Source: an uncultured Gammaproteobacteria bacterium (GTDB lineage: Bacteria > Patescibacteriota > Microgenomatia > Levybacterales > UBA12049). From it: a stretch of DNA of 64,000 bases. The translations under genes were made by a program, and so were the position numbers. A model generated the notes under the pieces. The model was not told where the DNA came from, did not search any database, and was given only the letters and a program-made list of their open reading frames with translations. Below, in pieces: positions 22,682-64,000 of the stretch. Numbering within the stretch: the stretch's first letter is position 1; each line of letters starts with the position of its first letter. The DNA lies in assembly GCA_964474445.1 (NCBI GenBank), contig CAYYSJ010000001.1:345377-409376 (forward strand). The letters run 5' to 3'.

Positions 22682-23911
22682 ATGAAATCGTTTTCTTCTA
22701 TACTTATTTCAACTTTCTCTCCTTGGAAAAAAGGACTACGGTCCCCTACCAACGGCATGATAGAGCCAATGCTCTCATATTTTCTCCCTCGTTTTAAAAG
22801 AGTTTGGTTACTTGATCAACCATATCCAGGTAGTGATAGTGTTATCCCCTTTGTTGAAGAATATGCCCTTGGAAAATTACAAAAAAAAGAGGTAATAAAA
22901 AATTATATATTCCCACTTATCCCTTTTCTCCATCTTACTAACAAACCAGGAACACAGGCCCCGCACAAATTAAGAGATTTTTTAAGTACTTTAGAGGTAG
23001 GTTGTCAAACCTCAGAGCCATTTGACCTCTTCATAGGAATGGAGGCAATCAATGCTCTTGCTGGAATAATGCTACGAAAAATAGGGAAAGTTAAAAAAGT
23101 AGTTTATTATGTTTCAGATTACTCTCCAAATCGTTTTCCTAATCCTCTCTTCAATATGGTGTATCTCTGGCTGGATCGAACAGCAGCAATGTATAGTGAT
23201 TTTATTTGGGATGTCTCTCTAGCTATGCAACCTGCCAGAATAAAAGCAGGACTCAATCTGACAAAAAGCGCTCCTGTCATTCATGTTCCTAATGCGCTCT
23301 TTAAAGAACAAATTACCTATTTACCGTGGAACAAAAGAAAAAAGCATACCGTCGTATTTGTAGGAACACTAGGACTTGAAAATGGTCCAGATATTGCAAT
23401 AGAAGCCTTTCAAAAAGTTGTTGCAGAAATTCCAGATGCTACTTTACATATTATTGGCGGAGGAGGCCTAGGATTTGAATCTGAGTATCTAAAAAAACTT
23501 TCTGAAAAATATCATCTGGAAAAAAATGTTATTTTTCATGGTTTTATATCAGACCTAAAAAAATTATCGCAGCTTATTAAGCAATACGAAGTGGCCATAG
23601 CTCCTTATAAGAAAATTCCTGGCTCTCATAGACTATATGGAGATGCTACTAAACTACGATTATATATGGCCGTAGGTTTACCAATTATTGTTACCGATGT
23701 TCCACCACTAGGGAAAGAACTTGAAAAAAAAGGTGCTGCACTAACTATAAAATCTTCAAAAGGTGAGCTTGCAAGAGCAATTATTTCTATTCTCAATAAC
23801 CCTCAAAAAAGAAAAATTCTCATCAATAATGCTATTAAAACAGCAAAGGACAATTTGTGGGAAAAAACATATCAAAATGCACTAGATGAAATAGGAAAGA
23901 TTATTGATTGA
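22682..23911 (+). CDS. GT4 glycosyltransferase
   Basis: The C-terminal domain reads HIIGGGGLGFESEYL...LYMAVGLPIIVTDV. Length is 409 aa. Confidence 0.65.
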   Translation: MKSFSSILISTFSPWKKGLRSPTNGMIEPMLSYFLPRFKRVWLLDQPYPGSDSVIPFVEEYALGKLQKKEVIKNYIFPLIPFLHLTNKPGTQAPHKLRDFLSTLEVGCQTSEPFDLFIGMEAINALAGIMLRKIGKVKKVVYYVSDYSPNRFPNPLFNMVYLWLDRTAAMYSDFIWDVSLAMQPARIKAGLNLTKSAPVIHVPNALFKEQITYLPWNKRKKHTVVFVGTLGLENGPDIAIEAFQKVVAEIPDATLHIIGGGGLGFESEYLKKLSEKYHLEKNVIFHGFISDLKKLSQLIKQYEVAIAPYKKIPGSHRLYGDATKLRLYMAVGLPIIVTDVPPLGKELEKKGAALTIKSSKGELARAIISILNNPQKRKILINNAIKTAKDNLWEKTYQNALDEIGKIID

Positions 23912-25592
23912 TCTTCTTTAAGCTAAACTGTACTTCTTTTGTAATATTTTTTAAGGTTTTCGTCTGTGAATCGTACGAAAATGCATGGACATCTGAAGGA
24001 TTAAAATGATATGTTAGCATCTCCTTTTTTAGGTGGTCTAATGATGAATAGTATCCATAATCTAATCCACCAATCTTCTTGTAGCCTTCACTTCCTAAAG
24101 CCCAAAGGTATCCTGAAACAAGAAGCTGTTTTGGAATTTTGTGTGAGGCGTAATAAATTACAGGGACAGAGTACCCAAATCCATGTTGAAAAGGAACAAA
24201 GTTATTTTCGCCATACCATACCTTATCACCTGTAAAATAAAAAATATTGGTGTTATCTTTCAATGATGGTAACTGAATCTGCAATTGTCTCAAGAAACCT
24301 CTTCTTTCATTTGCTATCACTGCTTGCATTTGAATAAACTGTCGTGTTTCATTCACATGTAAAAAGAGAAGCCAAAAGGAAGATAGAACAAAGAGAACCT
24401 TCATGACCTTGCCAATATTTTGCTTCATTGAAAAAATGCGAAGAGCTATAGCACCCAACAATATACTCGAAGCTGCAATTGGTATATAGTAATACCTAGG
24501 TTCCATATATGCAAATGTTTTCCCGACAATAATATAAGGAATAATACTTAAGAAGAAAAAAAGAAGGACAAAATAAATCACCTGCATAGAATATTTGTTT
24601 GCCATTAGTTTTCTTACTATAAAATGTAAAAGTAACAATGAAGCTGCCACAGCAAGCAAATCCAATACAACTGTTTCACTAATTAAGTCCGTTTTTGTAG
24701 TAATAAAAGGATAATAGAGATTCATAAATTCCGAAGCAATTTTCAAGGCTGCATATACTGGTATAAAAACTAATGAAAAACTTGTTAAAGGATACATGAT
24801 AATTCTTGAGAGTATTGTTTCAATAAAAAATATTTTCCCTTGATTTGTACTAGCATATACTGACGAAGCAATAATACTTTGTCCTGCCAACTGACGTACA
24901 ATAGTCATTTCAATAAACCTATAAAGAACAAAAAATGAAGCAAAAATGATAAATGGACTAAATATGGTTATGTATTTTTTAATTTTTATCTTTTCTTTAA
25001 AAACCGCCGGCAATAACGGAAGAAAAATAAAAAGGAAAATTCCACTTTCCTTAAAATAAAGAGATAATAACGCAAAGAAGAGTGATGCATGTGCAAAAAT
25101 ATTCTTCTTTTTTTCTAAAAAATGAAGAAATAAATATATTGAAGAAAATATACAAAATGAAGCTGGCTGTACTCCGAAAGAAGCAGCAAACCATGTTATC
25201 GATTGCTGGGAAACACTGGAAAGGCCAAAATAAGCTGCGCTTATCATTGCTGCAAGATGATTTTTAAGAATCTTTCTAGAGATTAAAAAAATAAGCAAAG
25301 TATTAATTATATGGAATAGCACTCCATAAAGAGCTAATGGTAGTGATGCAAAGCCAAATGACTTAAAAAAAATAACTCCTAAAATCCCTGTTAGTGGCCT
25401 TGAGTCCCCAAAAATAATCTGAAAGGGAGATAGTCCAAATGTTACTGTCTGGAATCCCAAAGCTAATACTCTTCCTGATCCTAACCACTCATCCTGTTGA
25501 TAGAATGTTTTCGGTAAATCCCAATATGTATAAAAAATAGCAACAATAAGCAATAAAAAAAGAAAAAAATTGAATGAAAGAATGTGCTTCAT
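23901..25592 (-). CDS. GT-C membrane glycosyltransferase of PMT/ArnT-like type (GT39/83-like)
   Basis: A first extracytoplasmic-loop DE motif is present ([11 protein letters not shown]). About 11 TM helices precede a soluble C-terminal domain. Length is 563 aa. Confidence 0.6.
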
Positions 25593-26671
25593 TGAAGGAA
25601 ATGGCCACTTTTACATATATCCTCGATAATTCTATTGTTATCATATGTGTACTCCCAATCAGGATAGTGGGACTTAAATTTAGATACATCAGAGATATAC
25701 CAAATATGATCTCCAATTCTATTGTCGTCAACATACTTTACATTTGCTTTTTTGCCTAAAATTTTTTCTGTCTTTGCTATTGCTTCAAGCATAGAAGTAT
25801 TTGAATGACGTGATCCTCCAATATTGTATGCCTCTCCACTTCTTGGGTTTTGATAAACATGATAAAACGCGTTAACTAAGTCAAACGAGTGGATATTATC
25901 TCTCACTTGCTTTCCTTTATATCCAAATATCGTATATTCGGTACCTGTTGCAACACACTTAATAAGGTATGCTAAAAACCCGTGTAATTTTGTGCCACTA
26001 TGAGCAGGGCCTGTGAGACATCCTCCACGGAAAACGGTTGTATGAAGTCCAAAATATTTTCCGTATTCTTGGACCATGACATCAGCAGCAACTTTCGATG
26101 CGCCAAAAATACTATGCTTTGAATTATCAATACTCATTGTTTCGTCAATCCCTATATAGAATGGATGACCTTTTGGTAACTCATATCTTGTCTCAAGCTC
26201 TATTAGAGGAAGTCTATTTGGTGTATCACCGTAAACTTTATTTGTTGAGGTAAAAATAAAAGTAGCCTCTGGCGAATATTTGCGATAATGCTCAAGAAGA
26301 TACATTGTGCCAAGCGCATTTATTGTGAAGTCTGTCAAAGGTTCTTTTGCAGCCCAGTCGTGGGATGGTTGTGCAGCAGTGTGAATAATGAGGTCAAACT
26401 TATGAGTCTTAAATATTGCTTCCAATTTTCCATTATCTCGAATATCTGCAGAATAATGTGTGTACTTATCACCTAATGTTTCCTCAAGTCTATTTCTATT
26501 CCATTTTGTACTTGCCTCTTTCCCAAAAAAGTATTGGCGCATATCATTATCCACGCCAATAATATGAAATCCTTTTTCAGCAAAAAATTTTGCAGCTTCT
26601 GATCCAATAAGCCCTGCAGAACCAGTAATTAAGACATTCTTTGTCATTATTTTACACTTTATAATAGGCAA
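25589..26671 (-). CDS. Extended-SDR protein of the CDP-paratose 2-epimerase (Tyv)-like family, with Phe in place of the catalytic Tyr
   Basis: Motifs seen: [11 protein letters not shown] and [11 protein letters not shown]. The Y-x-x-x-K position reads FGASKVAAD; this is ttt at the nucleotide level, which I checked. The flanking [11 protein letters not shown] resembles the Tyv motif FGLNTVVFRHS. Confidence 0.65.
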
Positions 26672-26696
26672 TAATCACACAAAAAGCAATCAGCAT

Positions 26697-27803
26697 TTAC
26701 CTTTCTTCCTGTTTCTCGAATTCGTTTACATTCTTACAAATATATTGTACTTCTTTATCAGTCAGTTCTGCATATATGGGAAGAGAAAGAATTGTGTTTG
26801 CAAGCCTTTCAGCTATTAGAAAATCTCCTTTTTTATAACCCAAGAAAGAAAAGCATGGTTGCATGTGTATGGGAATTGGATAATGAATAAGTGTATGAAT
26901 TCCCTTTTTATTTAAAAACTGCTGCAGTGCATCTCGTCTTCGACTCTCAATAACAAACAGATGATAACAAGAATGGTATGTATCCATTATTTTTTGATAG
27001 CTTGAGAATAATAAACCTTTTTTGTACAGGGAAGCTATCCTATTTCGTTGTTTATTCCAACGATTGAGATATTGTAGCTTTACAGAAAGAAGAGAAGCCT
27101 GTATCTCATCAAGCCTACTATTATAGCCTATTTCTTCATGATAGTATTTCTTTGTTTGTCCATAATTTCTTAATTTAAGCAGTTTTTCGTAGATCTTTTT
27201 GCTATTTGTCGCAAGGGCACCCGCATCACCATAAGCTCCCAAATTTTTACCAGGATAAAAGCTAAAGACAGATATATCTCCAAAGGTGCCAACTTTCTTT
27301 TCACCTATTGTAGCCCCATGAGCTTGAGCAGCATCTTCAACTAAATAAATGTTATGTCTATCTGCTATTTTTCTGAGAGTAGCAACATCACATGGTGCCC
27401 CATAAAGATGTACGGGCAGAATAGCTTTCGTCTTTTTTGTTATTTTTTTCTCAACTTCTGTTATATCAATTTGATACGAATCGGGATCACAATCAACAAG
27501 GACCGGAGTGGCTCCAACAGTCACAATAGCAAGGGTTGTTGCAATAAAGCTATTAGCAGGTGTAATGACTTCATCTCCCACACCAATTTCTAGAGCTCGA
27601 AGAGCGAGTATAAGCCCATCTGTCCCAGAATTTACTCCAACAACATATCTAATCCCTAAATACTCTCCGAATTTTTCCTCAAAAGCTTTCAACTCACCTC
27701 CCAAAAGAAACATTTGACTATCTACAACTCTTTGTATTGCAACATCAACTTTTTCTTTTATAGTTTTGTATTGTCTTTGTAAATCTAAAAAGGGTATTTT
27801 CAT
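26697..27803 (-). CDS. DegT/DnrJ/EryC1/StrS-family PLP-dependent nucleotide-sugar aminotransferase
   Basis: A lysine motif is present (SVFSFYPGKNLGAYGDAGA). The N-terminal region reads VVGVNSGTDGL. Length is 368 aa. Confidence 0.85.
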   Translation of the reverse strand: MKIPFLDLQRQYKTIKEKVDVAIQRVVDSQMFLLGGELKAFEEKFGEYLGIRYVVGVNSGTDGLILALRALEIGVGDEVITPANSFIATTLAIVTVGATPVLVDCDPDSYQIDITEVEKKITKKTKAILPVHLYGAPCDVATLRKIADRHNIYLVEDAAQAHGATIGEKKVGTFGDISVFSFYPGKNLGAYGDAGALATNSKKIYEKLLKLRNYGQTKKYYHEEIGYNSRLDEIQASLLSVKLQYLNRWNKQRNRIASLYKKGLLFSSYQKIMDTYHSCYHLFVIESRRRDALQQFLNKKGIHTLIHYPIPIHMQPCFSFLGYKKGDFLIAERLANTILSLPIYAELTDKEVQYICKNVNEFEKQEER

Positions 27804-27810
27804 AGATACA

Positions 27811-28704
27811 TTATAAATAAAAATAGCCTCCCTTGCTTACTTTTTGCCCACTTTCTGCAATACAAATAGTTATGGAACCATTCTTTACCGCTACTTCAAT
27901 ACCATTCTTTTTTATTGAAATAATCTTACCTGGAAATGCTTTTCTTTTTTTCTTCGTTATTTTTATGACACCTACCACAGTCATTTCTTGTGCAGCATAT
28001 CGTGTTTTTGGAAATTGGAAAGGTGGAAAAATGAATGTCTGTATATACTTTGCAATTTTTTTTCCGTCTTGATTCCAGTCAATAAAAAGATTAGAAAAAT
28101 CAAGAGAATATCGCGAGTAATAATTAGAAAAAGTGTCACTTTGTTTAACGGCCTTGTAGGATTTCTCGACAAGATTCGTTAGGTTTCTTTTGAGAAGTGG
28201 CAATACTTGCTCACAGCACCATTCATAGACTGATCTACCTGTATCAGCTAGAGTGATTTTCTTTTTGATTTTATCAATGATTGGACCATCATCAATTCCC
28301 TCTGTTAATTTATGCAATGTTACACCAATATACTCATCATTAAGTAAATGCCAAAGTCCTGGGTAGCATCCTCTATTTTTAGGTAAATCTGCAAAATGAA
28401 AATTAAATATTTCTCCTTTTACCATATCGATAATTTCTTTTTTAATAATCTTTCGACATTGTATAGAGAATATAATGGAAGGCATAAATGCTGAGAGCTT
28501 CTCTAAAAAATCATTGTTTCGAAAGGATGAAGGAGATAGAAATGAAATTTTATTTTTAGAGCAATAGGATTTTAATGAGGGCTGCCAACTATCTTCTCCA
28601 TTATCATCAGGATCGACAATAACAAGTATGTCATATTGTTTATCTCGCAAAAAATTAATACTTGGTATTGCTGCCTTTCCGTTAGCAAAAATAGCTATTT
28701 TCAT
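27811..28704 (-). CDS. Sugar N-formyltransferase (FMT-fold N-terminal domain; WlaRD/QdtF/FdtF/ArnA-Nterm-like)
   Basis: Catalytic motif is present (FNFHFADLPKNRG, N..H...LP..RG). The conserved Asp loop is present (DDGPIIDK). Length is 297 aa, with a C-terminal extension. Confidence 0.7.
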   Translation of the reverse strand: MKIAIFANGKAAIPSINFLRDKQYDILVIVDPDDNGEDSWQPSLKSYCSKNKISFLSPSSFRNNDFLEKLSAFMPSIIFSIQCRKIIKKEIIDMVKGEIFNFHFADLPKNRGCYPGLWHLLNDEYIGVTLHKLTEGIDDGPIIDKIKKKITLADTGRSVYEWCCEQVLPLLKRNLTNLVEKSYKAVKQSDTFSNYYSRYSLDFSNLFIDWNQDGKKIAKYIQTFIFPPFQFPKTRYAAQEMTVVGVIKITKKKRKAFPGKIISIKKNGIEVAVKNGSITICIAESGQKVSKGGYFYL

Positions 28705-28707
28705 AGG

Positions 28708-29112
28708 TTACTTTATTATTTCATAAGGAAACGTGTCTTCTGCAGACCACTCTTTATCTGTATAGTTGAGAAGTGATGCTTGAGTAGATAGACTTTTGAA
28801 AGCATGAACAATATTAGGCCCTATTTCAAGACGAATATATTTGTTTGAATCCCCATTCAATGTCAGTCTTTTTTTCTCTTTTGTTTTAATATCCATAAGT
28901 TTTACTTGCAATTTACCAGATACTACACCAAACCATTCTCTCCATTTTTTGTGATAATGATTGCCACGAATAATACTTTTTTTATCAAATGTAACGAAGT
29001 AAATCTGACCAAATTCCTTTAGTTTTTTATTTAAGTCACTGTTACGCAGAAAAACAACAAGTTGCCCTCTCTTATCATTAAATTTTTCAAAATATTCTAT
29101 TTTGTAATCCAT
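28708..29112 (-). CDS. Cupin nucleotide-sugar 3,4-ketoisomerase (FdtA/QdtA/WxcM-C-like)
   Basis: It is a 134-aa cupin with IIRGNHYHKK (RG.H.H metal/acid-base motif). It lies immediately upstream of the formyltransferase and aminotransferase genes. Confidence 0.55.
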   Translation of the reverse strand: MDYKIEYFEKFNDKRGQLVVFLRNSDLNKKLKEFGQIYFVTFDKKSIIRGNHYHKKWREWFGVVSGKLQVKLMDIKTKEKKRLTLNGDSNKYIRLEIGPNIVHAFKSLSTQASLLNYTDKEWSAEDTFPYEIIK

Positions 29113-30116: not shown

Positions 30117-30160
30117 TGCTATACAGTATTATGATTTACTCTAAATTTACTCTGCGTCCA

Positions 30161-31261: not shown

Positions 31262-31268
31262 ATTGAAG

Positions 31269-32147: not shown

Positions 32148-32157
32148 ACTTTAAGAA

Positions 32158-38098: not shown

Positions 38099-38107
38099 GA
38101 GTAGATT

Positions 38108-39070: not shown

Positions 39071-39074
39071 AGCA

Positions 39075-54562: not shown

Positions 54563-54568
54563 TGATGT

Positions 54569-54790
54569 ATGAACCTTCCTAATATCCCTGCGTGGGGACT
54601 TTTTGTTCTTTTCGTATGGTCTTTGCTCTGGAAAGGATTGGCTCTGTGGACCTCTGCAAGACAAGATCAGCGAAATTGGTTTGTTGTTATGCTTATTCTC
54701 AATACCGTTGGACTTTTAGAAATTGCCTATCTTTTCTTTTTCGCAAAAGAAAAATTAAGAATTCGCAGCTTACAATTTTGGAGAAAATAG
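54569..54790 (+). CDS. Small 2-TM membrane protein (73 aa) on the opposite strand inside the array
   Basis: Sequence: MNLPNIPAWGLFVLFVWSLLWKGLALW...WFVVMLILNTVGLLEIAYLFFF. It has two clear hydrophobic helices, lies in the only ~250-nt non-minus-coding pocket, and follows a near-consensus promoter. Confidence 0.5.
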   Translation: MNLPNIPAWGLFVLFVWSLLWKGLALWTSARQDQRNWFVVMLILNTVGLLEIAYLFFFAKEKLRIRSLQFWRK

Positions 54791-57852: not shown

Positions 57853-58766
57853 CAGCGGCCAAAACTTCCCTTCCCCATATTCCCTCTGTAAAAATCAATA
57901 ATGCCCTTTTTCTGCCATTCTCTGCCACGTACTAACAAACGCATACTTTCCCTGATAAGAGCTACTTTTGAACGAAGAGGCGCATATCGCATACCAAAAA
58001 GCATTCTATTGCGCGTGAGATAGTAATCATGCAAAATTGATCCAGAACCACCACCTGATGCAGCGGTGATATGCCACAAAACAGCTTGAGGGTGGTAAAC
58101 AATGCGAAAACCTGCTTTCAGAAGTCTCTGACTTAAATCACCATCTTCAAAGTAAAGAAAATACTTATTATCAAACATCCCAACCTTTTGCAGTGCTTGT
58201 CTTGATAACAGCATGCAACAGCCTGTTGCAAAACTGATGTCTTCTTCCCTGTCATATTGTCCCTTATCTACTTCATCTACTCCGCGATGTCTCGTAAATA
58301 CGTTAGCCCAATCAACATAGCCACCAGCAAACCAAAAGACTCTTCCTAACTCGTCCTTTTTATATTTTTCTAAATGATATTCATGGCCTTTTGCAAAATA
58401 AATCTTTGGCACAACAAGCCCTACATTTGCATCATGCTCAAATGGTTTGAGAAGCTCCTGGAGAAGCTCAGGATCTACAATCGTGTCATTATTGATAAGC
58501 ATGACGTAGTCTGCTTCATTCCCAAGGCCATATTCTATGCCAACATTACTTCCCCCTGTAAATCCTAAATTTTTCCCTGTGCTTAATAGCGCTATCCCTT
58601 TTTCCTTTTCTTCAGGAGTTAACGTAAAGGGTATTTTTGATCCATTATCGATAACAACTATTTCTACAATAAGACCTTTTGTATTCAACTTTTCTAAAGA
58701 CTGCAGACACGCATGTGTCTCCTTCTCACTATTGAAATTTATTGTTGCTATAACGACTTTCTTCAT
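57852..58766 (-). CDS. GT2 glycosyltransferase (rhamnosyltransferase-like WbbL-type layout)
   Basis: Motifs seen: VVIATINFNSEKETHACL, IVVIDNGSK, LINNDTIVDP, FYFEDGDLSQR. Confidence 0.75.
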   Translation of the reverse strand: MKKVVIATINFNSEKETHACLQSLEKLNTKGLIVEIVVIDNGSKIPFTLTPEEKEKGIALLSTGKNLGFTGGSNVGIEYGLGNEADYVMLINNDTIVDPELLQELLKPFEHDANVGLVVPKIYFAKGHEYHLEKYKKDELGRVFWFAGGYVDWANVFTRHRGVDEVDKGQYDREEDISFATGCCMLLSRQALQKVGMFDNKYFLYFEDGDLSQRLLKAGFRIVYHPQAVLWHITAASGGGSGSILHDYYLTRNRMLFGMRYAPLRSKVALIRESMRLLVRGREWQKKGIIDFYRGNMGKGSFGR

Positions 58767-59674
58767 ACGGTCAGTTTCCTCACAATTTTATATGCAACTT
58801 TCTTCAAAGGATTTTTTGTCGTCTCTATCGTTTTTGTATGTTCCCAATATCGTAATTCTTTTTGCAATACACGTGTTTCCCGACTCAGATGGGGTAAAAG
58901 CGTATGAGAGTCTACTTCAACAAACTTATGTTTCTCCCATAGGTATCCAAAAACAATGAGGTGGTAAAAGGCCATCAATAAGGAAAGCACCAGTCCATGC
59001 AGACCATCCTTATACCCTTGTCGTGCAAAATAACGACTGAAGAATTCTTTTGCAGGGAAACGGATACTATCTAAAAAATCAAATTTGTATCCTTTTTGCA
59101 GGAGTACTTCTGCCTCATTGGGAGCATAGGTCATTACCATTTTGTATAAAAATTCATGAATTGATTCGTAATTTGTGTGCTCCATTGGAGAAGAAAGATA
59201 TTCTAGAGAACCTTCAACCGCAACCATTTCATGGACGTGTACCTCTGGAAATTTTCCTTTTTCCCTTCTGAAGAGTCGAAGTTGATAATCTGGATACCAA
59301 CCCGTATGCTCTATCCACTTTCCAAAAATACTATTTTTTCGAGGAATCCAGTATCCATTTGCCACCGCTGATGTATTCGTAATAACTTCAGTAATTTCCT
59401 TTCCTAATTCTGATGTAATGCTTTCATCATCGTCTAAATATAAAATCCATTCTTTGCTTGCCTTAGTAAAACCAAAATTTTTATTTACATTCAGCATTGG
59501 ATTATTTTTTCGAATAAAGACATGCGGAGTAAATGTTTTTGCGACCTTCACACTATCATCAGAGGAGGTGTTATCAACGACAATAATTTCATCAGCAATG
59601 TCTTTTATAGACAGTAGACAGCGCTGTAGTTTTTCTTGACGATTAAAGGTCGAAATAACAACAGAGAGTGACAT
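58763..59674 (-). CDS. WaaE/KdtX-like GT2 glycosyltransferase
   Basis: Motifs seen: LSVVISTFNRQEKL, IIVVDNTSSDDS, LDDDE, YWIPRKNSIFGKWIEHTGWYPDYQLRLF. Compare the WaaE motif GWYPDRVTRLY. Confidence 0.7.
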   Translation of the reverse strand: MSLSVVISTFNRQEKLQRCLLSIKDIADEIIVVDNTSSDDSVKVAKTFTPHVFIRKNNPMLNVNKNFGFTKASKEWILYLDDDESITSELGKEITEVITNTSAVANGYWIPRKNSIFGKWIEHTGWYPDYQLRLFRREKGKFPEVHVHEMVAVEGSLEYLSSPMEHTNYESIHEFLYKMVMTYAPNEAEVLLQKGYKFDFLDSIRFPAKEFFSRYFARQGYKDGLHGLVLSLLMAFYHLIVFGYLWEKHKFVEVDSHTLLPHLSRETRVLQKELRYWEHTKTIETTKNPLKKVAYKIVRKLTV

Positions 59675-59676: not shown

Positions 59677-61128
59677 TTACTTAATAAAATGTGCCTTTAG
59701 TATTAGTATATCCTTTTTTACTTCTTCTTTTGCAAGAAGGTATGTGCAGGTAAGGTAGAACGCTGAAGCTACAATAATTTCTCCAAGAATAGCAGGGAGC
59801 GATACAGGCATCATTTTTATAAGAACCAGCAATACAACACCCATCATGAATGCTGACAATGCAGGAACAAATACGCCCTTTAATGAAAAAGAAACATACC
59901 GCTTGGTAAGTATAACAACAAGTACTACAGAAAAGGCAATAAAGGCAGAGGCAATAGCAACACCATTAAATCCAAAAAGATAGATACAAAGGGGGGTAAA
60001 TACCCACGTGGTAACTACCCAAAAGACCATGAGGGAAAGTGATACTTTTATTTTCCCTATCGCATTTAACGCATTTGTGAGCGGTGTAGAGATCGACGAC
60101 AATCCTGCATTAAGTGCAAAAAATGCTAAAGAAACAAGAGCAGGCTCCCACTTTTTATATTTTGGAATAATATCAATGAATTGAGGGGCAAGCAGAACAA
60201 GGCCGATAAGGGATGGAAAAATAAGCAGTGATAAAACAAAAAGAGACTTTTCTATTGCTTTTCCTAAAGAATTCTTTTCATGCTGAAGTCGTGAAAAAGA
60301 AGGAAAGGTAATGCGGATGATGTTATCCATAATAAGGCGAAGAGGAGTAAAAGCCCATTTCTGAGCAAAACCAATATAGCCAACTTGTGTTAACGGTAAT
60401 ACTTTTCCAATATAGGCAATCAGCAAATCATCTTTTATCAAGGCTAAGAGGCTATTTGTTTGGAATGGAATGCCAAATGATAACAATTTTTTAGCAACTT
60501 CTTTTGAGAAACCAACCTGGATTCTCCATGGTGAAATGATATAAATGGCAATAACCCCTGAGAGACCTCGAGCAAGCACTGCATAGGTAAAACTTGCAAC
60601 TCCCCACCCTTTTATTGCTAATACTACAACAACAATATTAAAAAAGAGCGTTTCAATAATTTGTGGAATAACAAGCTTCTCAAAGTGAAGGTCTCGTTCC
60701 AAAAGTACAGAAGGGATGGTCTTTAGAGAGGAAAGGAAAAATGACACAATTAACGCTTGGAAAAGAAATATCCCATTACTGTCTAAGTGGTAAAACTTTC
60801 CAATAAGAGGAGATAGCAGCAACGCTATAAGAACAACTGTTACCACAAGTCCTTCTTGAATCGTAAAGGTGGTTTTTAAATCCTCTTTTGTAATAGGCTC
60901 TTTTTTTTGAATTAAAGCAGCTGCAAGCCCGATATCTGAGAAATATTGTAAAAAAGCGATCACTGCACTGACGACAAAGTAAATTCCAAAAACTGCAGGA
61001 GAAAGGAAAATGGTCAGAAGTAAATTGACAACAAAACTGACTATTTGGATAAAAAATGTACGGGTTACTAAAGCAAATACTCCATGAATCGACCGCTTTG
61101 TAACCGCAGCGATATCAAGATCTTCCAT
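59677..61128 (-). CDS. Wzx-like oligosaccharide flippase (MOP superfamily)
   Basis: It has about 12 to 14 TM helices. I prefer the start MEDLDIAAVTKRSIHG at 61128, since the track start at 61245 overlaps the upstream GT2 gene by 130 nt. Confidence 0.6.
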   Translation of the reverse strand: MEDLDIAAVTKRSIHGVFALVTRTFFIQIVSFVVNLLLTIFLSPAVFGIYFVVSAVIAFLQYFSDIGLAAALIQKKEPITKEDLKTTFTIQEGLVVTVVLIALLLSPLIGKFYHLDSNGIFLFQALIVSFFLSSLKTIPSVLLERDLHFEKLVIPQIIETLFFNIVVVVLAIKGWGVASFTYAVLARGLSGVIAIYIISPWRIQVGFSKEVAKKLLSFGIPFQTNSLLALIKDDLLIAYIGKVLPLTQVGYIGFAQKWAFTPLRLIMDNIIRITFPSFSRLQHEKNSLGKAIEKSLFVLSLLIFPSLIGLVLLAPQFIDIIPKYKKWEPALVSLAFFALNAGLSSISTPLTNALNAIGKIKVSLSLMVFWVVTTWVFTPLCIYLFGFNGVAIASAFIAFSVVLVVILTKRYVSFSLKGVFVPALSAFMMGVVLLVLIKMMPVSLPAILGEIIVASAFYLTCTYLLAKEEVKKDILILKAHFIK

Positions 61129-61843
61129 AATGCAAGTTCTTCCATAATTGAAAACTCTCGACAATAGCACGAACAATGACACGAAGATTCCCACCACTTT
61201 GGTCTCCATACTTTCTTGGATAGTGATGAACTTCAACTTGGACAATTTTTAAATGGGCTTTCTTTGCTTTGGCTAAAATTTCCGTTGTAATCATCGCTCC
61301 TTCTGAATTGAGTGGAAGAATTTTCTTTATGGCAGAACGCTTAAACATTTTAAAACCACAATCGATATCCTTGAAATAAAATCCAAAGAAAATAAAATCC
61401 CAAATTTTCAGAAGATTCATCAATAAATGTCTAAAGGGATGATCAAGTCGCTTCATCCTACTTCCTATAACCATATCTGCTTGGTCAATCTTTTCCAAAA
61501 AACGCGTCACTTCAGAAAAATCAAATTGACCATCCCCATCTGTAAAAACAACCAAGTTATACTTTGCAGTTTCAAGACCGCTTTTTAGGGCAGCTCCATA
61601 ACCTCTATTTGGTTTATGTGTGATAACGCGAAGATGCTGAGGATCTGTTTTTGCTAATGTCTCCGCTTTTTCAAGTGTATGATCCGAGGATCCATCATCT
61701 ACCATGATAATTTCCCACTTGCTGGCTACTTGTTTTGCAACAGAGATTGCTTCTTTCACAACTTTTTCTATATTTTTTTCTTCGTTCCAGAAGGGAAAGA
61801 ATACGGAGAGCTCAGGTACTTTTGCGGTCATATATTTTGCCAA
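61115..61843 (-). CDS. DPM1/GtrB-like GT2 polyprenyl-phosphate sugar synthase (soluble form)
   Basis: Motifs seen: LSVFFPFWNEEKNI, IIMVDDGSSDHT, NRGYGAALKSG, VVFTDGDGQFD. Confidence 0.7.
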   Translation of the reverse strand: MAKYMTAKVPELSVFFPFWNEEKNIEKVVKEAISVAKQVASKWEIIMVDDGSSDHTLEKAETLAKTDPQHLRVITHKPNRGYGAALKSGLETAKYNLVVFTDGDGQFDFSEVTRFLEKIDQADMVIGSRMKRLDHPFRHLLMNLLKIWDFIFFGFYFKDIDCGFKMFKRSAIKKILPLNSEGAMITTEILAKAKKAHLKIVQVEVHHYPRKYGDQSGGNLRVIVRAIVESFQLWKNLHYGRS

Positions 61844-63542
61844 TCTCCCAAATTATAGCAAGAATAAGTATGATTACGCTAGTCAGAGAGATAGCATTAC
61901 TCAGATTTTCAACAAATGTTCCACGGTACGCAAAGGTGAGTTTATGCATTCCTGAAGAAAGGTACACCTTCATCCCTTGTGGAGCTCTTTGTATCTGGAT
62001 GGCTCTCCCATTATCAAATGCCTTCCACCCTGGAAAATACGCTTGATTCACAAAAACATAATGAGGAACACTCACCGTTAATACATCGTTTTTTTCTTGT
62101 GTTTTGAGCATTTCTTTTTGCACCATATGATCACGTGAAGGGACAATAAAAGAGTGAGGCAATTCTTCAGAACGTTTTGGCTTGGTAAAACGCTTTGGCA
62201 TGTATTCATCCGAAATCTTTGACGTTGTCCATTCAAGAAAACGTATTGCAGTTAAAGAATCAGTATTTACTGGTATATACAATTGTGGTTTAAAGTATTT
62301 ACCATACAGAAAAAGACCACTCATGACCACGATCAAGCATAGTCCTACACCAAGCATTTTTTGCTTTGAAAAAGCAAAAGAAACAACCATACCTCCTAAA
62401 AGAGAAGAAAAAAGTGACGCAAGGAGTAAATACCTCCAAGGATATTGTAGAAATGCCATTTGATGAATAACATTCCATATCACTGTTGAGATAGATAACA
62501 TGAAGAAAACACTTACGAGAAGTCCTGCAATACAAAGGATAGTTGCAACAAAAAGTTTTTTTTGTTTTATCACAAACGGGAGTAGCATAACTGCTAGAAC
62601 ACTCAGGAGTATATGCACTTTCCCTATCATAAATGAGAAACCGTCAATACATCCTGGAACCGATCCTCCAAAACCCCACGGACTTTGCCACAGTTGTTCT
62701 AAACACACGAAGTGATCATGAAAATCAGCAGTACCCCCCACTTGGGAAAGAACGTTGGTATATTGCATCTCTGTAAAAACAGGCAACCAATAAAACGTAC
62801 TCAGAAAAAGACCAAAAAGAACGGTAAGTAACAAATAAAACGCAGTCTGCAGTTTATATCGTGAACTAAGGATAAGGGCAACGCAGGTAGTAAGCAAAAA
62901 CGGAGTTATCATAAATGCTGAAAGATTATGGGAAAGTATAATCCCAGCAAACCCAATAGCTCCAACTATTGCCCACTTAACAATCGAAAATTGTACAATT
63001 AATATTTTATTTGGGACCTGTGGTAAAGAATGTATCGCAAGAAAAAGTTTATAAAATCCCCAAAATACGAGTGGGAAAAACACATATGCCCATAATTCTC
63101 CTATATCACCTCGCACATACATATCAACAGCATGGTACGGAGCAAAAAGGTAGAGTATAGAAGCAGCAAGTCCTCCCCATTTTCCCCACAACGAAGAAGC
63201 AAGAGCATACATCGTGACACCACTCCCAACCATTGCTATTCCAATCATTATTTTTGTTCCCAAAAGACTATTTGAAAAAAGAAAGACGAAAAAAGCACCT
63301 ATGTAATAGGCAAGTGGACCGTAAAAATTAAAGAGCGGATATCCATACCCATACCCCAAATCTTGAACCCATCGTACTGGAGCCATTCCATCCTTCAATG
63401 CCTTATACATTTCATAGACACGTTGTACCTGCACGTTGTCATGCACGGGGTAAAACCCATTATGAAAAAGTGGAACTATTGTGATAAGAGATAACCCAAG
63501 AACGATAATCAGTGGTATAAAAGAGAAAAGTTTACTTTTCAT
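61812..63542 (-). CDS. GT-C-like membrane protein of the HD...YVRGD[VI]GE family
   Basis: Motifs seen: PVHDNVQVQRV, FAPYHAVDMYVRGDIGELWAYVFFPLV, C-terminal YFPGWKAFDNGRAIQ and anchor LTSVIILILAIIW. Length is 576 aa. Confidence 0.55.
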   Translation of the reverse strand: MKSKLFSFIPLIIVLGLSLITIVPLFHNGFYPVHDNVQVQRVYEMYKALKDGMAPVRWVQDLGYGYGYPLFNFYGPLAYYIGAFFVFLFSNSLLGTKIMIGIAMVGSGVTMYALASSLWGKWGGLAASILYLFAPYHAVDMYVRGDIGELWAYVFFPLVFWGFYKLFLAIHSLPQVPNKILIVQFSIVKWAIVGAIGFAGIILSHNLSAFMITPFLLTTCVALILSSRYKLQTAFYLLLTVLFGLFLSTFYWLPVFTEMQYTNVLSQVGGTADFHDHFVCLEQLWQSPWGFGGSVPGCIDGFSFMIGKVHILLSVLAVMLLPFVIKQKKLFVATILCIAGLLVSVFFMLSISTVIWNVIHQMAFLQYPWRYLLLASLFSSLLGGMVVSFAFSKQKMLGVGLCLIVVMSGLFLYGKYFKPQLYIPVNTDSLTAIRFLEWTTSKISDEYMPKRFTKPKRSEELPHSFIVPSRDHMVQKEMLKTQEKNDVLTVSVPHYVFVNQAYFPGWKAFDNGRAIQIQRAPQGMKVYLSSGMHKLTFAYRGTFVENLSNAISLTSVIILILAIIWEIGKIYDRKST

Positions 63543-64000
63543 ATTGTTTTCGCATGATGAGTACTATGAGAACAAGCAAGCTACAAAGAGAAAGTACATC
63601 TGCAAAAAGTCTTACTGGCGTTTCTCGAAAACGCGCGATAACCGTATGATCTCCAGCAGAGAGAGGAAACTGCATCAATCCAAATGCATTTGCATAAGAT
63701 ACACTTACTCGTTTTCCATCAACCAAGACTTCCCAACCGGGGAAATAAATAAGATTGATTTGAACAACAGCATTTGTGCGAGATATGACATGTGCAGCCA
63801 GGTAACTCCCTTTAAATTGGACATTTGAGACAACACCATTACCTTGGCGTATTTCTATTTTTTTGTCAGTATACACAGTTGGCTGATTTTTCACCCAGCT
63901 TGGCATATATTCATTTTTTACTGTTGTTGAATCTTGGTTTGTACTGTAAAACGTATCAGGGAAGTTTTGATAGTTCGTTGGGAAAAGAAGACTCCAGGAG
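63532..64000 (-). CDS. C-terminal part of a further GT-C-like protein of the same family; N-terminus lies beyond the right edge
   Basis: The track shows only MPSW... from 63906. In my own translation the frame stays open from 63907 to 64000 with no stop (...SWSLLFPTNYQNFPDTFYSTNQDSTTVKNEY-MPSW). The C-terminal YFPGWEVLVDGKRVSV and anchor LSLCSLLVLIVLIM match 39839 and 61812. Confidence 0.6.
   Translation of the reverse strand, partial: SWSLLFPTNYQNFPDTFYSTNQDSTTVKNEYMPSWVKNQPTVYTDKKIEIRQGNGVVSNVQFKGSYLAAHVISRTNAVVQINLIYFPGWEVLVDGKRVSVSYANAFGLMQFPLSAGDHTVIARFRETPVRLFADVLSLCSLLVLIVLIMRKQYEK

What the first reader, a model, noticed from the sequence alone, without database searches (positions are those of the whole stretch)
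23901..64000. About 40-kb gapless co-directional array packed with GT-C membrane glycosyltransferases and paired polyprenyl-phosphate sugar synthases; candidate multi-branch extracytoplasmic glycosylation system
Seen in sequence: about 37 consecutive minus-strand ORFs run from 63906 down to 23901 with 1-4 nt overlaps and essentially no intergenic DNA. The exceptions are 49254-49517 and the 54516-54790 pocket.

Over the whole window at least 14 ORFs have GT-C-like architecture, meaning 10-12 TM helices, an extracytoplasmic beta-rich domain and often a C-terminal TM anchor. They fall into three motif families:
1. PMT/ArnT-like, with the D-E first-loop motif: 23901, 41476, 43156, 44811, and possibly 47742.
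2. YfhO-like, with PLWN...G.PLLAN.QSAV: 8529, 16329, 19345, 51208, 54770.
3. A third family with HD...YVRGD[VI]GE: 39839, 61812, 63532.

Interspersed are four DPM1/GtrB-like GT2s (4509, 34985, 49518, 61115), three WaaE-like GT2s, two Wzx-like flippases, an O-antigen-ligase-like gene and eight GT4s.

Established knowledge: three-component systems use a GT-A enzyme to make a polyprenyl-P-monosaccharide in the cytoplasm, which a GT-C enzyme then consumes outside the membrane. Examples are GtrB/GtrA/Gtr-type, ArnC/ArnEF/ArnT, CsbB/GtcA/YfhO and Ppm1/Pmt.

Inference: this locus encodes many such donor/transferase branches acting on a common surface polymer or glycoprotein. It would be a combinatorial envelope-decoration machine, of a kind reported mainly for Patescibacteria and actinobacterial cell walls. 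Substrates and products are unknown.
Basis: partly seen in the sequence, partly recalled or inferred. Interest (0 to 1): 0.7.

Follow-up and report, generated by a model that had tools for sequence, protein, structure and literature searches.

The report
Levybacteria surface-glycan gene array
A tiny-genome, uncultured bacterium (Candidatus Levybacteria, Patescibacteria) fills this whole 64-kb stretch with genes for making and attaching surface sugars, including 14 membrane enzymes predicted to add sugars outside the cell. The layout is shared by its relatives but is built from known kinds of parts.

Summary
From 23901 to 64000 there are 34 tightly packed minus-strand ORFs, broken only by a 264-nt gap and by one small plus-strand gene (DUF5652).

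Pfam supports seven of the 14 above its cut-offs. The other seven rest on profile comparisons, orthologues, or AlphaFold models of 19345 and 23901 whose top solved-structure matches are all GT-C enzymes. Each full-length family keeps an acidic residue after TM1.

The four DPM1/GtrB-like GT2s best match ArnC, GtrB and DPMS, unlike ten other GT2s. 15672 is a fifth candidate.

Corrections:
- 8529 and 19345 are AftD-like, not YfhO-motif proteins.
- 8529 and 7702 are two halves of one GT-C.
- 63532 is a C-terminal fragment.

The window comes from a Candidatus Levybacteria genome. In 43 related 21.6-kb loci the median is 9 GT-C genes, on a conserved backbone. Two MOP flippases sit beside donor synthases.

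Best reading: a lineage-wide envelope-glycan super-locus that combines cytoplasmic assembly with several lipid-phosphate-sugar/GT-C branches. Acceptors, sugars and a "common target" are untested. It is a new variant of a known kind.

The parts
1..1161 (-). N-terminal part of a polytopic membrane protein that runs off the window start. O-antigen ligase/polymerase-like (Wzy_C).
   Evidence: translation. No Pfam hit for the fragment itself. Its 803-aa orthologue L045:19246-21654 (181.8 bits) has Wzy_C at 35 bits, cut-off 31.7.
1133..2038 (-). GT2 glycosyltransferase
   Evidence: Pfam Glycos_transf_2 E 3e-21. Not ArnC-like.
2013..2606 (-). Hexapeptide-repeat sugar O-acetyltransferase (WcaF-like)
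2619..3746 (-). GT4 glycosyltransferase
   Evidence: Glycos_transf_1 E 5e-42.
3752..4291 (-). Stand-alone N-terminal half of a GT4 (179 aa)
   Evidence: Glyco_transf_4 E 6e-8. The same half-plus-full GT4 pair is in L045, L037 and L086.
4509..5477 (-). ArnC/GtrB-type polyprenyl-phosphate sugar synthase with two C-terminal TM helices
   Evidence: NCBIfam ArnC E 2e-51. PDB ArnC E 5e-46 full length, GtrB E 1e-29. TM helices.
5598..7550 (-). Secreted or anchored protein with two LamG (concanavalin-like lectin) repeats
   Evidence: Laminin_G_3 E 2e-46, two stretches. N-terminal hydrophobic segment.
7702..8532 (-). Outer-face domain half of a split AftD-like GT-C
   Evidence: 40% identical to residues 390-650 of the 670-aa homologue P0301, E 5e-67. 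In-house profile 329 bits.
8529..9722 (-). Membrane (catalytic) half of the split AftD-like GT-C. GGD motif with invariant D33.
   Evidence: Aligns to the N-terminal ~390 aa of 650-700-aa homologues. P0301 hits GT-C_AftD at 25.8 bits, cut-off 26. hhalign to the 19345 family gives 99.8%.
9726..15569 (-). GT2, APH-like kinase, sulfotransferase, SDR epimerase/dehydratase and split transketolase: a modified-sugar pathway block
   Evidence: Pfam. The same block is in L085 and L056.
15672..16376 (+). GT2, a fifth and weaker candidate polyprenyl-phosphate sugar synthase, convergent with 16329
   Evidence: Its only PDB hits are ArnC and GtrB, E 8e-6 to 1.5e-3. BLAST hits to 61115 and 34985.
16329..18302 (-). 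Divergent YfhO-like GT-C
   Evidence: No Pfam hit. In-house YfhO profile 86.7 bits over the TM region and C-terminus. About 12 TM helices.
18299..19348 (-). Membrane protein of unknown family (349 aa, about 6 TM helices)
   Evidence: No Pfam or NCBIfam hit. A 360-aa gene sits in the same place in L085.
19345..21651 (-). AftD-like GT-C of a family with no Pfam model (likely start M44 of the listed ORF). GGDD motif with invariant D41.
21713..23911 (+). SDR epimerase and GT4, the only plus-strand pair
   Evidence: Pfam. The same inverted pair is in L083-L085.
23901..25592 (-). Divergent PMT_2-like GT-C with invariant Q33-D34-E35-W36
   Evidence: No Pfam hit. AF2 pLDDT 92, pTM 0.92. Foldseek top 22 hits are all GT-C. 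hhalign to the PMT profile gives 97.8%. Alignment A3.
25589..29112 (-). Nucleotide-sugar pathway: 4,6-dehydratase-like SDR, DegT aminotransferase, formyltransferase and FdtA-like ketoisomerase (a formamido-dideoxyhexose is inferred)
29118..34979 (-). Cytoplasmic assembly genes: GT2, GT4, methyltransferase, PseB/FnlA-like dehydratase, GT2, GT4
34985..35791 (-). Soluble DPM1/PpgS-like polyprenyl-phosphate sugar synthase candidate
   Evidence: NCBIfam top hit PpgS. PDB top hits GtrB, DPMS and ArnC.
35769..37052 (-). MOP (Wzx-type) flippase next to the synthase 34985
   Evidence: Polysacc_synt_3 and Polysacc_synt, E about 1e-14. Adjacency conserved in 7 of 8 loci.
37049..39842 (-). GT4, UDP-glucose 4-epimerase GalE and GT2
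   Evidence: GalE scores 407.8 bits against a cut-off of 262.3.
39839..41479 (-). PTPS_related/YfhO-clan GT-C with HD...YVRGDVGE
   Evidence: PTPS_related E 2e-15, YfhO E 4e-11. D35 is 99% conserved.
41476..43152 (-). GT39/PMT_2-like GT-C
   Evidence: PMT_2 30.9 bits, cut-off 26.1. 39% identical to 43156.
43156..44814 (-). GT39/PMT-like GT-C with invariant D41-W-D43-E44
   Evidence: PMT_2 51 bits, PMT 40.4 bits. Alignment A1. Orthologues named 'glycosyltransferase family 39'.
44811..46454 (-). GT39/PMT-like GT-C, always next to the 43156 orthologue
   Evidence: Adjacent in 77 of 77 loci.
46487..47740 (-). GT87/MptA-like GT-C
   Evidence: GT87 19.4 bits, below the cut-off of 25. The orthologue in L001 has GT87 and a weak MptA_B hit on record. 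hhalign to PMT gives 88.8%.
47742..49253 (-). Divergent PMT_2-like GT-C
   Evidence: PMT_2 E 0.009. hhalign to the PMT profile gives 98.4% over 368 columns.
49254..49517 (.). 264-nt non-coding gap, a possible operon boundary
   Evidence: No Rfam or tRNA hit.
49518..50237 (-). Soluble DPMS/AglJ-like polyprenyl-phosphate sugar synthase candidate
   Evidence: NCBIfam AglJ E 5e-33. PDB DPMS E 2e-16, ArnC, GtrB.
50234..51196 (-). GT2 glycosyltransferase (not ArnC-like)
51208..53454 (-). YfhO-family GT-C
   Evidence: YfhO 75.3 bits, cut-off 28.5. D62 is 100% conserved.
53451..54515 (-). GT4 glycosyltransferase
54569..54790 (+). DUF5652 small 2-TM protein on the opposite strand
   Evidence: Pfam E 8e-23. 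Promoter-like site at 54535-54562. Same position in 11 relatives.
54770..57109 (-). YfhO-family GT-C
   Evidence: YfhO 72.5 bits. 31% identical to 51208 over the full length. D74 is 100% conserved.
57112..59674 (-). Three GT2 glycosyltransferases
   Evidence: 57112 and 58763 are paralogues of 39075.
59677..61209 (-). MOP flippase directly downstream of synthase 61115
   Evidence: Polysacc_synt_3 E 6e-52. NCBIfam MOP flippase E 6e-37, O-glycosylation flippase E 7e-31.
61115..61831 (-). Soluble ArnC-like polyprenyl-phosphate sugar synthase candidate
   Evidence: NCBIfam ArnC E 6e-23. PDB ArnC E 6e-20 over residues 6-223.
61812..63542 (-). PTPS_related-type GT-C with HD...YVRGDIGE
   Evidence: 28% identical to 39839 over the full length, E 2e-62. 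In-house profile 487 bits. Pfam PTPS_related is below cut-off at 20.1 bits.
63532..64000 (-). C-terminal part of a further PTPS/YfhO-type GT-C that runs off the window end
   Evidence: YfhO C-terminus E 3e-6. PTPS profile 92 bits.

Best explanation
The finding is the larger part of an envelope-glycan biosynthesis super-locus that fills the whole 64-kb window of a Candidatus Levybacteria (Patescibacteria) genome. A backbone of it is conserved across that lineage.

It most likely works in two layers.

(1) Cytoplasmic layer. Nucleotide-sugar enzymes (GalE, a formamido-dideoxyhexose pathway, and a kinase/sulfotransferase/transketolase block) together with about 9 GT2 and 6-7 GT4 enzymes build lipid-linked glycans. 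These are exported by MOP/Wzx-type flippases and handled by a Wzy_C-like protein.

(2) Extracytoplasmic layer. Five GT2 enzymes of the DPM1/ArnC/GtrB type load single sugars onto polyprenyl phosphate. The lipid-phosphate sugars are flipped, probably by the two MOP proteins, which each sit beside one of these synthases. No GtrA is present. Fourteen GT-C transferases of four kinds (GT39/PMT_2-like, YfhO/PTPS-related, AftD-like and GT87-like) then use them on the outer face to extend or decorate surface glycopolymers and/or secreted proteins. Catalysis would use the conserved acidic residue after TM1.

Shown here: the family and fold assignments, the conserved residues, the gene linkage and the conservation in relatives.
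Inferred: enzyme activities, donors, which protein flips what, and the acceptors.
For: Origin: the 43156 protein is 100% identical to an NCBI protein on a 420,821-bp contig. Its 56-76% identical orthologues are named GT39 proteins of Candidatus Levybacteria.

GT-C status:
- Pfam above cut-off for six full-length genes.
- In-house profiles and hhalign link 16329, 23901, 47742, 46487 and 8529+7702.
- An acidic residue after TM1 is 91-100% conserved in each full-length family.

Donor synthases: 4509, 34985, 49518 and 61115 have ArnC, PgfS, AglJ or PpgS as best NCBIfam hits. Their best PDB hits are DPMS, ArnC and GtrB. Ten other GT2s do not. The only PDB hits of 15672 are ArnC and GtrB.

Linkage:
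- 61812 (GT-C), 61115 (synthase) and 59677 (MOP) are consecutive genes.
- 35769 (MOP) and 34985 (synthase) are adjacent, and this is conserved in 7 of 8 loci.
- 51208-50234-49518 is a conserved order.
- 16329 and 15672 are convergent neighbours.
- Wzx- or MATE-type flippases are accepted parts of such systems (PMC8035078; PMC11127046).

Conservation:
- 80 related loci share the order 54770-53451-51208-50234-49518-...-44811-43156-...-39839-39075-38108-37049-35769-34985.
- The median is 9 GT-C genes per 21.6 kb, range 4-12.
- 44811 and 43156 orthologues are adjacent in 77 of 77 loci.
Against: - No enzyme activity, sugar or acceptor is known.
- All donor-synthase hits are far below NCBIfam equivalog cut-offs.
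- 34985, 49518 and 61115 lack the TM helices of ArnC and GtrB.
- There is no GtrA-type flippase and no initiating phosphoglycosyltransferase in the window.
- The MOP proteins may be ordinary Wzx flippases for lipid-diphosphate oligosaccharides.
- Five donors for 14 GT-Cs means most GT-Cs have no dedicated partner.
- A profile of the 43156 family found no solved structure by sequence.
- Three GT-C calls rest on sub-threshold Pfam scores plus profile or orthologue evidence (46487, 47742, 61812).
Confidence: 0.7

Rival explanations
1. The GT-C array mainly polymerises a lipoglycan or wall heteropolysaccharide outside the membrane, as mycobacteria do for lipomannan, lipoarabinomannan and arabinogalactan. 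There, a few lipid-phosphate donors feed many GT-Cs. On this view the array builds a backbone rather than decorating a pre-made polymer.
For: - Several family kinds match the mycobacterial set: AftD-like 19345 and 8529+7702, GT87/MptA_B-like 46487, and PMT-like genes.
- The ratio of 5 donor synthases to 14 GT-Cs resembles PPM and DPA feeding many enzymes.
- GT-C number varies from 4 to 12 in relatives.
Against: - Fold similarity does not give acceptor or linkage.
- AftD's carbohydrate-binding modules and ACP partner are absent, because 19345 is 768 aa against AftD's ~1,300-residue chain (1,250-1,312 in the PDB entries).
- No decaprenyl-phosphoribose pathway genes (DprE1/E2, UbiA-type) were seen in the window.
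- Many cytoplasmic GT2/GT4 genes plus Wzx and Wzy_C argue that at least part of the glycan is built inside.
Confidence: 0.3
2. The conserved GT39-like core (44811, 43156, 41476 and relatives) is a protein O-glycosylation machine. It would act on Sec-exported S-layer, pilin or other surface proteins, as actinobacterial Pmt and eukaryotic PMTs do. The always-adjacent 44811/43156 pair would act as a heterodimer like yeast Pmt1-Pmt2.
For: - 43156 and 44811 pass both the PMT_2 and PMT Pfam cut-offs.
- They keep the loop-1 D-E motif.
- Their orthologues are adjacent in 77 of 77 loci.
- A DPMS-like synthase (49518) is in the same conserved block.
- A secreted LamG protein is encoded in the window.
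Against: - PMT_2 also covers ArnT and teichoic-acid or polysaccharide glycosyltransferases (table in PMC8035078).
- No MIR domain was detected.
- NCBIfam gives only weak Agl23 and ArnT hits.
- The family profile matched no solved Pmt by sequence.
- The heterodimer idea rests on adjacency alone.
Confidence: 0.3
3. It is just an ordinary Wzx/Wzy-type polysaccharide (O-antigen or capsule-like) locus. On this view the GT-C genes are unrelated housekeeping genes that happen to lie nearby in a dense, one-strand genome.
For: - Two Wzx-like proteins, a Wzy_C-like protein, nucleotide-sugar genes and many GT2/GT4 genes are present.
- GC is lower at 8-38 kb, as in variable O-antigen cassettes.
- Co-directional dense packing is normal for such genomes.
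Against: - The GT-Cs are interleaved with, and translationally coupled to, the GT2, GT4, flippase and GalE genes. That interleaved order is conserved in 80 loci.
- Donor synthases lie next to GT-Cs.
- No initiating phosphoglycosyltransferase is in the window.
Confidence: 0.1
4. The polytopic proteins are not glycosyltransferases but transporters or other membrane proteins.
For: Several have no Pfam hit at all: 16329, 19345, 23901 and 8529.
Against: - The top 19 and top 22 Foldseek hits of the two modelled proteins are all GT-C enzymes. Transporters appear only at E above 0.08 with TM-scores around 0.1.
- Profile links join the remaining genes to the YfhO and PMT families.
Confidence: 0.02

Closest known systems
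Multi-component transmembrane glycosylation systems of Gram-positive bacteria (CsbB/GtcA/YfhO, GtlA/GtlB, L. lactis CsdAB/CD/EF with CflA; review PMC8035078)
   Same: - A GT-A enzyme makes a C55-P-sugar.
- A flippase and a YfhO- or PMT_2-type GT-C then glycosylate a wall polymer outside a single membrane.
- One flippase or donor can serve several GT-Cs.
- Some GT-Cs have no Pfam domain.
   Different: - Those organisms have about 1-3 GT-A/GT-C pairs scattered in multi-megabase genomes. Here 14 GT-Cs and 5 candidate synthases are packed into 64 kb. A complete genome of a related Levybacteria is only 762,565 bp.
- No GtrA/GtcA-type flippase is present. MOP flippases sit beside the synthases instead.
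- Three of the synthases lack membrane helices.
Three-component O-antigen modification (GtrA/GtrB/Gtr*), including the MATE-flippase/GT136 pentofuranose variant (PMC11127046)
   Same: - Lipid-phosphate monosaccharide donor, flippase and GT-C encoded as neighbours.
- 61812-61115-59677 has exactly this three-gene composition, with a MOP-superfamily flippase.
   Different: - Those are single add-on modules, often phage-borne, that act on a known O-antigen. Here many branches are embedded in a conserved chromosomal backbone.
- The synthases here are GT2, not phosphoribosyl-transferase type.
- The acceptor is unknown.
Mycobacterial and corynebacterial envelope GT-C machinery (Ppm1, Pmt, PimE, MptA-D, AftA-D, EmbA-C)
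   Same: - Many GT-C paralogues of several families (PMT-, GT87- and AftD-like).
- They are fed by a few polyprenyl-phosphate sugars.
- Extracytoplasmic assembly takes place in a bacterium without a classical outer membrane.
   Different: - Sequence identity is only about 10-14% in the structural alignments.
- AftD's extra carbohydrate-binding domains are missing.
- No arabinose-donor pathway is present.
- The genes form one contiguous array rather than several clusters.
- The phylum is different and the genome is about five times smaller.
ArnC/ArnT lipid A aminoarabinose pathway
   Same: - 4509 is full-length similar to ArnC (E 5e-46).
- A formyltransferase and a DegT aminotransferase are present.
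- PMT_2-type GT-Cs are related to ArnT.
   Different: - ArnA's decarboxylase domain, ArnD and ArnE/F were not found in the window.
- Scores are far below the equivalog cut-offs (175 against 529 bits).
Eukaryotic Pmt1-Pmt2 protein O-mannosyltransferase heterodimer
   Same: - Two paralogous PMT-family GT-Cs with the loop-1 D-E motif.
- Here the two are always encoded side by side (77 of 77 loci).
   Different: - No MIR domain is present.
- Heterodimer formation and protein acceptors are untested.
- The lipid carrier would be a bacterial polyprenol.

Membership tests
GT-C fold glycosyltransferases (class as a whole) | Polytopic membrane domain with the GT-C fold | tested here: met
   Pfam PMT_2, PMT, YfhO or PTPS_related above cut-off for six full-length genes. 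AF2 models of 19345 and 23901 match only GT-C structures at the top. Profile links cover the rest. About 7-13 hydrophobic segments per protein.
GT-C fold glycosyltransferases (class as a whole) | Conserved acidic residue(s) in the first extracytoplasmic loop after TM1 | tested here: met
   43156 D43-E44 (98-100%), 23901 D34-E35 (100%), 19345 D41 (100%), 8529 D33 (100%), YfhO pair D62/D74 (100%), PTPS D35 (99%), 47742 D45 (91%), 46487 D120/E126 (100%). Position after the first helix confirmed in the two models and assumed elsewhere (for 46487 it follows several predicted helices).
GT-C fold glycosyltransferases (class as a whole) | Use of a lipid-phosphate-linked sugar donor on the outer face | not testable with these tools
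   Needs biochemistry.
Three-component / multi-component transmembrane glycosylation system | GT-A (GT2) polyprenyl-phosphate sugar synthase | tested here: met
   By similarity only. 4509, 34985, 49518 and 61115 best match ArnC, PgfS, AglJ or PpgS, and DPMS, ArnC or GtrB structures. Ten control GT2s do not. 15672 is weak. All are below equivalog cut-offs.
Three-component / multi-component transmembrane glycosylation system | Dedicated flippase for the lipid-phosphate sugar (GtrA/SMR type, or Wzx/MATE type) | tested here: inconclusive
   No GtrA or SMR family hit in any ORF. Two MOP flippases each lie next to a synthase, but they could be ordinary Wzx.
Three-component / multi-component transmembrane glycosylation system | Genetic linkage of synthase and GT-C | tested here: met
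   61812-61115-59677 are consecutive. 51208-50234-49518 is conserved. 16329 and 15672 are convergent neighbours. 8529/7702 and 4509 are one gene apart.
YfhO family (PF09586) | Pfam score at or above the gathering cut-off | tested here: met
51208 scores 75.3, 54770 scores 72.5 and 39839 scores 42.6 bits against 28.5.
YfhO family (PF09586) | CsbB-type synthase and GtcA flippase partners | tested here: not met
   A synthase candidate (49518) is linked, but no GtcA/GtrA homologue is in the window. The rest of the genome could not be read.
GT39 / protein O-mannosyltransferase | PMT (PF02366) domain and loop-1 D-E motif | tested here: met
   43156 scores 40.4 and 44811 scores 40.7 bits against 22.7. 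D-E is invariant. 41476 passes PMT_2 only.
GT39 / protein O-mannosyltransferase | MIR domain (eukaryotic PMTs) and protein Ser/Thr acceptor | tested here: not met
   No MIR hit in Pfam. The acceptor is not testable here.
AftD-type arabinofuranosyltransferase (PF11847) | Pfam GT-C_AftD at or above cut-off | tested here: not met
   Window proteins give no hit. The full-length homologue P0301 scores 25.8 against 26 bits.
AftD-type arabinofuranosyltransferase (PF11847) | Fold similarity extending beyond the membrane domain | tested here: met
AftD-type arabinofuranosyltransferase (PF11847) | C-terminal carbohydrate-binding modules and bound acyl carrier protein | tested here: not met
   19345 is 768 aa against AftD's ~1,300-residue chain (1,250-1,312 in the PDB entries). 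Only the one soluble domain, aligned to the N-terminal part of AftD, is present.
Wzx/Wzy-dependent polysaccharide locus | Wzx flippase | tested here: met
   35769 and 59677.
Wzx/Wzy-dependent polysaccharide locus | Wzy polymerase or ligase | tested here: inconclusive
   The truncated ORF at 1-1161 has no Pfam hit itself. Its orthologue passes Wzy_C.
Wzx/Wzy-dependent polysaccharide locus | Initiating phosphoglycosyltransferase (WecA or WbaP type) | tested here: not met
   None among the window ORFs. It may lie elsewhere in the genome.

The most novel reading that the evidence does not exclude
Levybacteria, despite genomes of roughly 0.8-1 Mb, assemble a complex surface lipoglycan or glycoprotein coat largely outside the membrane. 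They would use a dozen or so GT-C enzymes, in a way convergent with or anciently related to the mycobacterial system.

The enzyme set would include two families that have no Pfam model (19345-type and 23901-type). It would also include an obligate GT39 pair acting like the eukaryotic Pmt1-Pmt2 heterodimer. Lineage-to-lineage turnover of GT-C paralogues would set host or phage recognition specificity.
Probability: 0.2. Interest if true: 0.75.

Novelty: new variant of a known kind. Interest (0 to 1): 0.55.

Why it matters
Patescibacteria are usually described as stripped of polysaccharide and nucleotide-sugar metabolism (PMC7137472). A 2024 overview of their biology does not mention glycans at all.

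Here one lineage spends about 64 kb on surface glycosylation. That would be roughly 6-8% of the genome if the genome is 0.8-1 Mb; a complete related genome is 762,565 bp. The locus holds far more outer-face GT-C enzymes than model Gram-positives have.

For epibiotic, host-dependent cells, the surface glycan coat is a plausible determinant of host attachment, phage resistance and self-protection.

The locus also offers:
- a compact, conserved test bed of three-gene modules (GT-C, synthase, MOP flippase);
- two GT-C families with no Pfam model;
- a naturally split GT-C.

All of these are useful for studying how GT-C enzymes choose donors and acceptors.

Tried and rejected
- **Locating the window's own contig.** Exact-protein look-up of 43156 and of its 100% match P0001 failed. 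Only two short Logan contigs carrying the 23901 protein were found, so the rest of the genome could not be read. This leaves open whether a GtrA flippase, an initiating transferase or RmlA lie elsewhere.
- **Solved structures by sequence.** A profile of the 43156 family against PDB sequences gave nothing at E 0.01. The MOP flippase 59677 also gave nothing.
- **RNA features.** tRNA and Rfam scans of the window were empty.
- **Families for unknown proteins.** Pfam and NCBIfam found nothing for 18299, so its role stays unknown.
- **AlphaFold database search.** It was not available.
- **Literature.** Searches combining Patescibacteria or CPR with GT-C, YfhO, GT39, ArnT or mannosyltransferase found no relevant paper.
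- **Rejected: 3752-4291 is a pseudogene fragment.** The half-GT4 plus full-GT4 pair recurs in three other loci.
- **Rejected: the long ORF overlaps are real.** Internal ATGs remove most of them.
- **Rejected: 8529 and 19345 belong to the YfhO motif family.** The motif is absent.
- **Promoter and terminator scan.** It gave fewer sites than shuffled sequence, so it is weak evidence only.

Full report
**1. Observation.**
The window has low GC (0.28-0.39) and falling cumulative GC skew. It is almost entirely coding on the minus strand.

From 23901 to the window end I count 34 minus-strand ORFs of at least 100 aa. 33 are complete, and the last one runs off the window.

Seven junctions are 4-nt overlaps and most others are gaps of 2-44 nt. 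The apparent overlaps of up to 131 nt come from taking the longest ORF. Internal ATGs remove most of them.

- 49254-49517 is a 264-nt stretch with no convincing ORF.
- 54516-54769 contains a plus-strand 73-aa gene, 54569-54790. It is a DUF5652 family member (E 8e-23). The best sigma-70-like match of the region lies just upstream.

So the array is not strictly co-directional.

No tRNA or Rfam family is present.

**2. What the genes are.**
Pfam shows that the whole window, not just 23901-64000, is glycan biosynthesis:
- 14 GT2s;
- six full GT4s plus one stand-alone GT4 N-half;
- two MOP/Wzx flippases (35769 and 59677; the latter is a NCBIfam MOP flippase, E 6e-37);
- GalE, above the equivalog cut-off;
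- a dehydratase, FdtA-like isomerase, DegT aminotransferase and formyltransferase set;
- a methyltransferase and an acetyltransferase;
- a block of kinase, sulfotransferase, SDR and split transketolase;
- a secreted protein with two LamG repeats.

The truncated ORF at the window start is Wzy_C-like, judged through its 803-aa orthologue.

**3. The GT-C proteins.**
Six full-length genes pass Pfam cut-offs: 39839 (PTPS_related/YfhO), 41476, 43156 and 44811 (PMT_2, the last two also PMT), and 51208 and 54770 (YfhO).

Paralogy inside the window gives three clear groups:
- 41476/43156/44811, 29-39% identical;
- 51208/54770, 31% identical;
- 39839/61812, 28% identical, plus the 63532 fragment.

For the rest I used three approaches.

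*In-house profiles from 80 related loci.* 16329 scores 86.7 bits on the YfhO profile. 23901 scores 24.5 bits on the PMT profile. hhalign gives 47742 to PMT 98.4%, PTPS to YfhO 99.8% and 46487 to PMT 88.8%. The orthologue of 46487 in L001 carries GT87 and a weak MptA_B hit on record.

*AlphaFold models.*
- The 23901 model has pLDDT 92. Its top 22 hits are all GT-C: STT3, AglB, PglB, ALG12 and ArnT.
- Transporters appear only with TM-scores near 0.1.

*The all-representatives search.* 8529 (397 aa) aligns to the first ~390 residues of 650-700-aa proteins. 7702 aligns to residues 390-650 of one of them (40% identity, E 5e-67). So the two ORFs, joined by an ATGA overlap, are one GT-C split in two. 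The full-length homologue scores 25.8 bits on GT-C_AftD against a cut-off of 26. The family aligns with the 19345 family at 99.8% over 632 columns.

His motif families need correcting.
- PLWN...QSAV is present only in 51208 and 54770, and is degenerate in 16329.
- 8529 and 19345 have GGDW/GGDD instead.
- The third-family motif cannot be seen in the 63532 fragment.

Each full-length family keeps an acidic residue after TM1.

**4. Donor synthases and flippases.**
4509, 34985, 49518 and 61115 have ArnC, PgfS, AglJ or PpgS as best NCBIfam hits. Their best solved relatives are DPMS, ArnC and GtrB. 4509 matches over its full length, including two TM helices (E 5e-46).

Ten other GT2s, used as a control, do not show these hits.

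15672, on the plus strand and convergent with 16329, has only ArnC and GtrB as PDB hits. It is a fifth, weaker candidate.

No GtrA-type flippase was found. Instead each MOP protein lies next to a synthase:
- 61812 (GT-C), 61115 (synthase) and 59677 (MOP) are consecutive;
- 35769 (MOP) and 34985 (synthase) are adjacent, which holds in 7 of 8 loci.

Wzx- or MATE-type flippases are accepted in such systems (PMC8035078; PMC11127046).

**5. Origin and conservation.**
The 43156 protein is identical to an NCBI protein on a 420,821-bp contig. Orthologues are 56-76% identical and are named GT39 proteins of Candidatus Levybacteria/Levyibacteriota. A complete related chromosome is 762,565 bp.

In 80 related loci the order is conserved: 54770-53451-51208-50234-49518-(47742-46487)-...-44811-43156-...-39839-39075-38108-37049-35769-34985-33873. 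The number of extra GT-C paralogues between these anchors varies.

In 43 loci of 21.6 kb the median is 9 GT-C genes, range 4-12. 537 of 611 ORFs of at least 400 aa are GT-C by my profiles.

The 44811 and 43156 orthologues are adjacent in 77 of 77 loci.

The window part at 8.5-26 kb is syntenic with L085. In L045 the core is joined directly to the 3752-2619-2013-1133-Wzy_C genes. Together with the lower GC at 8-38 kb, this suggests a conserved core plus a variable cassette, as in O-antigen loci.

**6. Mechanism.**
The best-supported model has two layers.
- Cytoplasmic assembly on a lipid carrier, with export.
- Several lipid-phosphate-sugar branches consumed by GT-Cs on the outer face.

Family, fold, motif, linkage and conservation are shown. 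Activities, sugars, flippase substrates and acceptors are inferred.

Three rivals differ mainly in the acceptor:
- a mycobacterial-style extracytoplasmic polymer assembly;
- protein O-glycosylation by a GT39 pair;
- a plain Wzx/Wzy locus with bystander GT-Cs, which is disfavoured by the interleaved, conserved order.

**7. Comparison and novelty.**
The parts belong to known kinds: multi-component transmembrane glycosylation, the Gtr/GT136 three-component systems, and the mycobacterial GT-C machinery.

What differs:
- the scale and density (14 GT-Cs and 5 synthases in 64 kb of a very small genome);
- MOP rather than GtrA flippases beside the synthases;
- two GT-C families with no Pfam model;
- a split GT-C;
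- lineage-wide conservation with paralogue turnover.

I found no open-access paper describing this. General accounts state that polysaccharide genes are reduced in Patescibacteria.

I rate it a new variant of a known kind, of moderate interest.

Noticed in passing
window 7702-9722: One AftD-like GT-C is split into a membrane half (8529-9722) and an outer-domain half (7702-8532) at a clean ATGA overlap followed by an A7 run. Unsplit homologues are 650-700 aa, but ~400-aa forms recur among the 50%-identity representatives. It may therefore be a natural gene fission rather than an error.
   Followed up: partly
window 54569-54790 (+): A DUF5652 small 2-TM protein is encoded on the opposite strand inside the array, with the best promoter-like site of the region just upstream. 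It sits at the same place and orientation in 11 related loci. Its function is unknown. A helper role for a soluble GT2 (like GacJ with GacI) is pure speculation.
   Followed up: partly
window 3752-4291 and 2619-3746: A 179-aa protein made only of the N-terminal GT4 domain lies next to a full GT4. The pair recurs in L045, L037 and L086, so it is a conserved two-gene unit and not a pseudogene.
   Followed up: partly
window 9726-16376: A block of GT2, APH-like kinase, sulfotransferase, SDR, split transketolase (N and C halves as separate genes) and the GT2 15672. It is conserved in L085 and partly in L056. It suggests a sulfated or phosphorylated, possibly branched-chain, sugar.
   Followed up: no
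window 5598-7550: A 650-aa protein with an N-terminal hydrophobic segment and two near-duplicate LamG/concanavalin-like repeats. It lies between the ArnC-like synthase and the split GT-C. It could be a glycan-binding protein or a glycosylated surface protein.
   Followed up: no
window 8000-38000 against 38000-64000: GC is 0.28-0.35 in the first stretch and 0.36-0.39 in the conserved core. In L045 the core abuts the genes that lie at 1-4.3 kb here. The middle ~35 kb therefore looks like a variable, possibly exchanged, cassette.
   Followed up: partly
window 18299-19348: A 349-aa protein with one N-terminal and about five C-terminal TM segments and no detectable family. It is wedged between two GT-Cs, and a 360-aa gene sits at the same position in L085.
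   Followed up: no
window 19345-21780: The listed ORF starts at a TTG that overlaps the plus-strand gene at 21713. Homologues are about 770 aa, and an ATG at codon 44 (gene 19345-21651) removes the overlap.
   Followed up: yes
loci L008, L011, L015 and others: Many of the related MAG records are titled 'uncultured Gammaproteobacteria' (others 'Pacearchaeota', 'Limnocylindrales' and similar). Yet they carry the Levybacteria-type array at 50-60% identity, so the record titles look mislabelled.
   Followed up: no
window 43156-46454: 43156 and 44811 give weak NCBIfam hits to Agl23 ('flippase activity-associated protein' of haloarchaeal N-glycosylation; 38.6 and 32.2 bits, cut-off 126).
   Followed up: no
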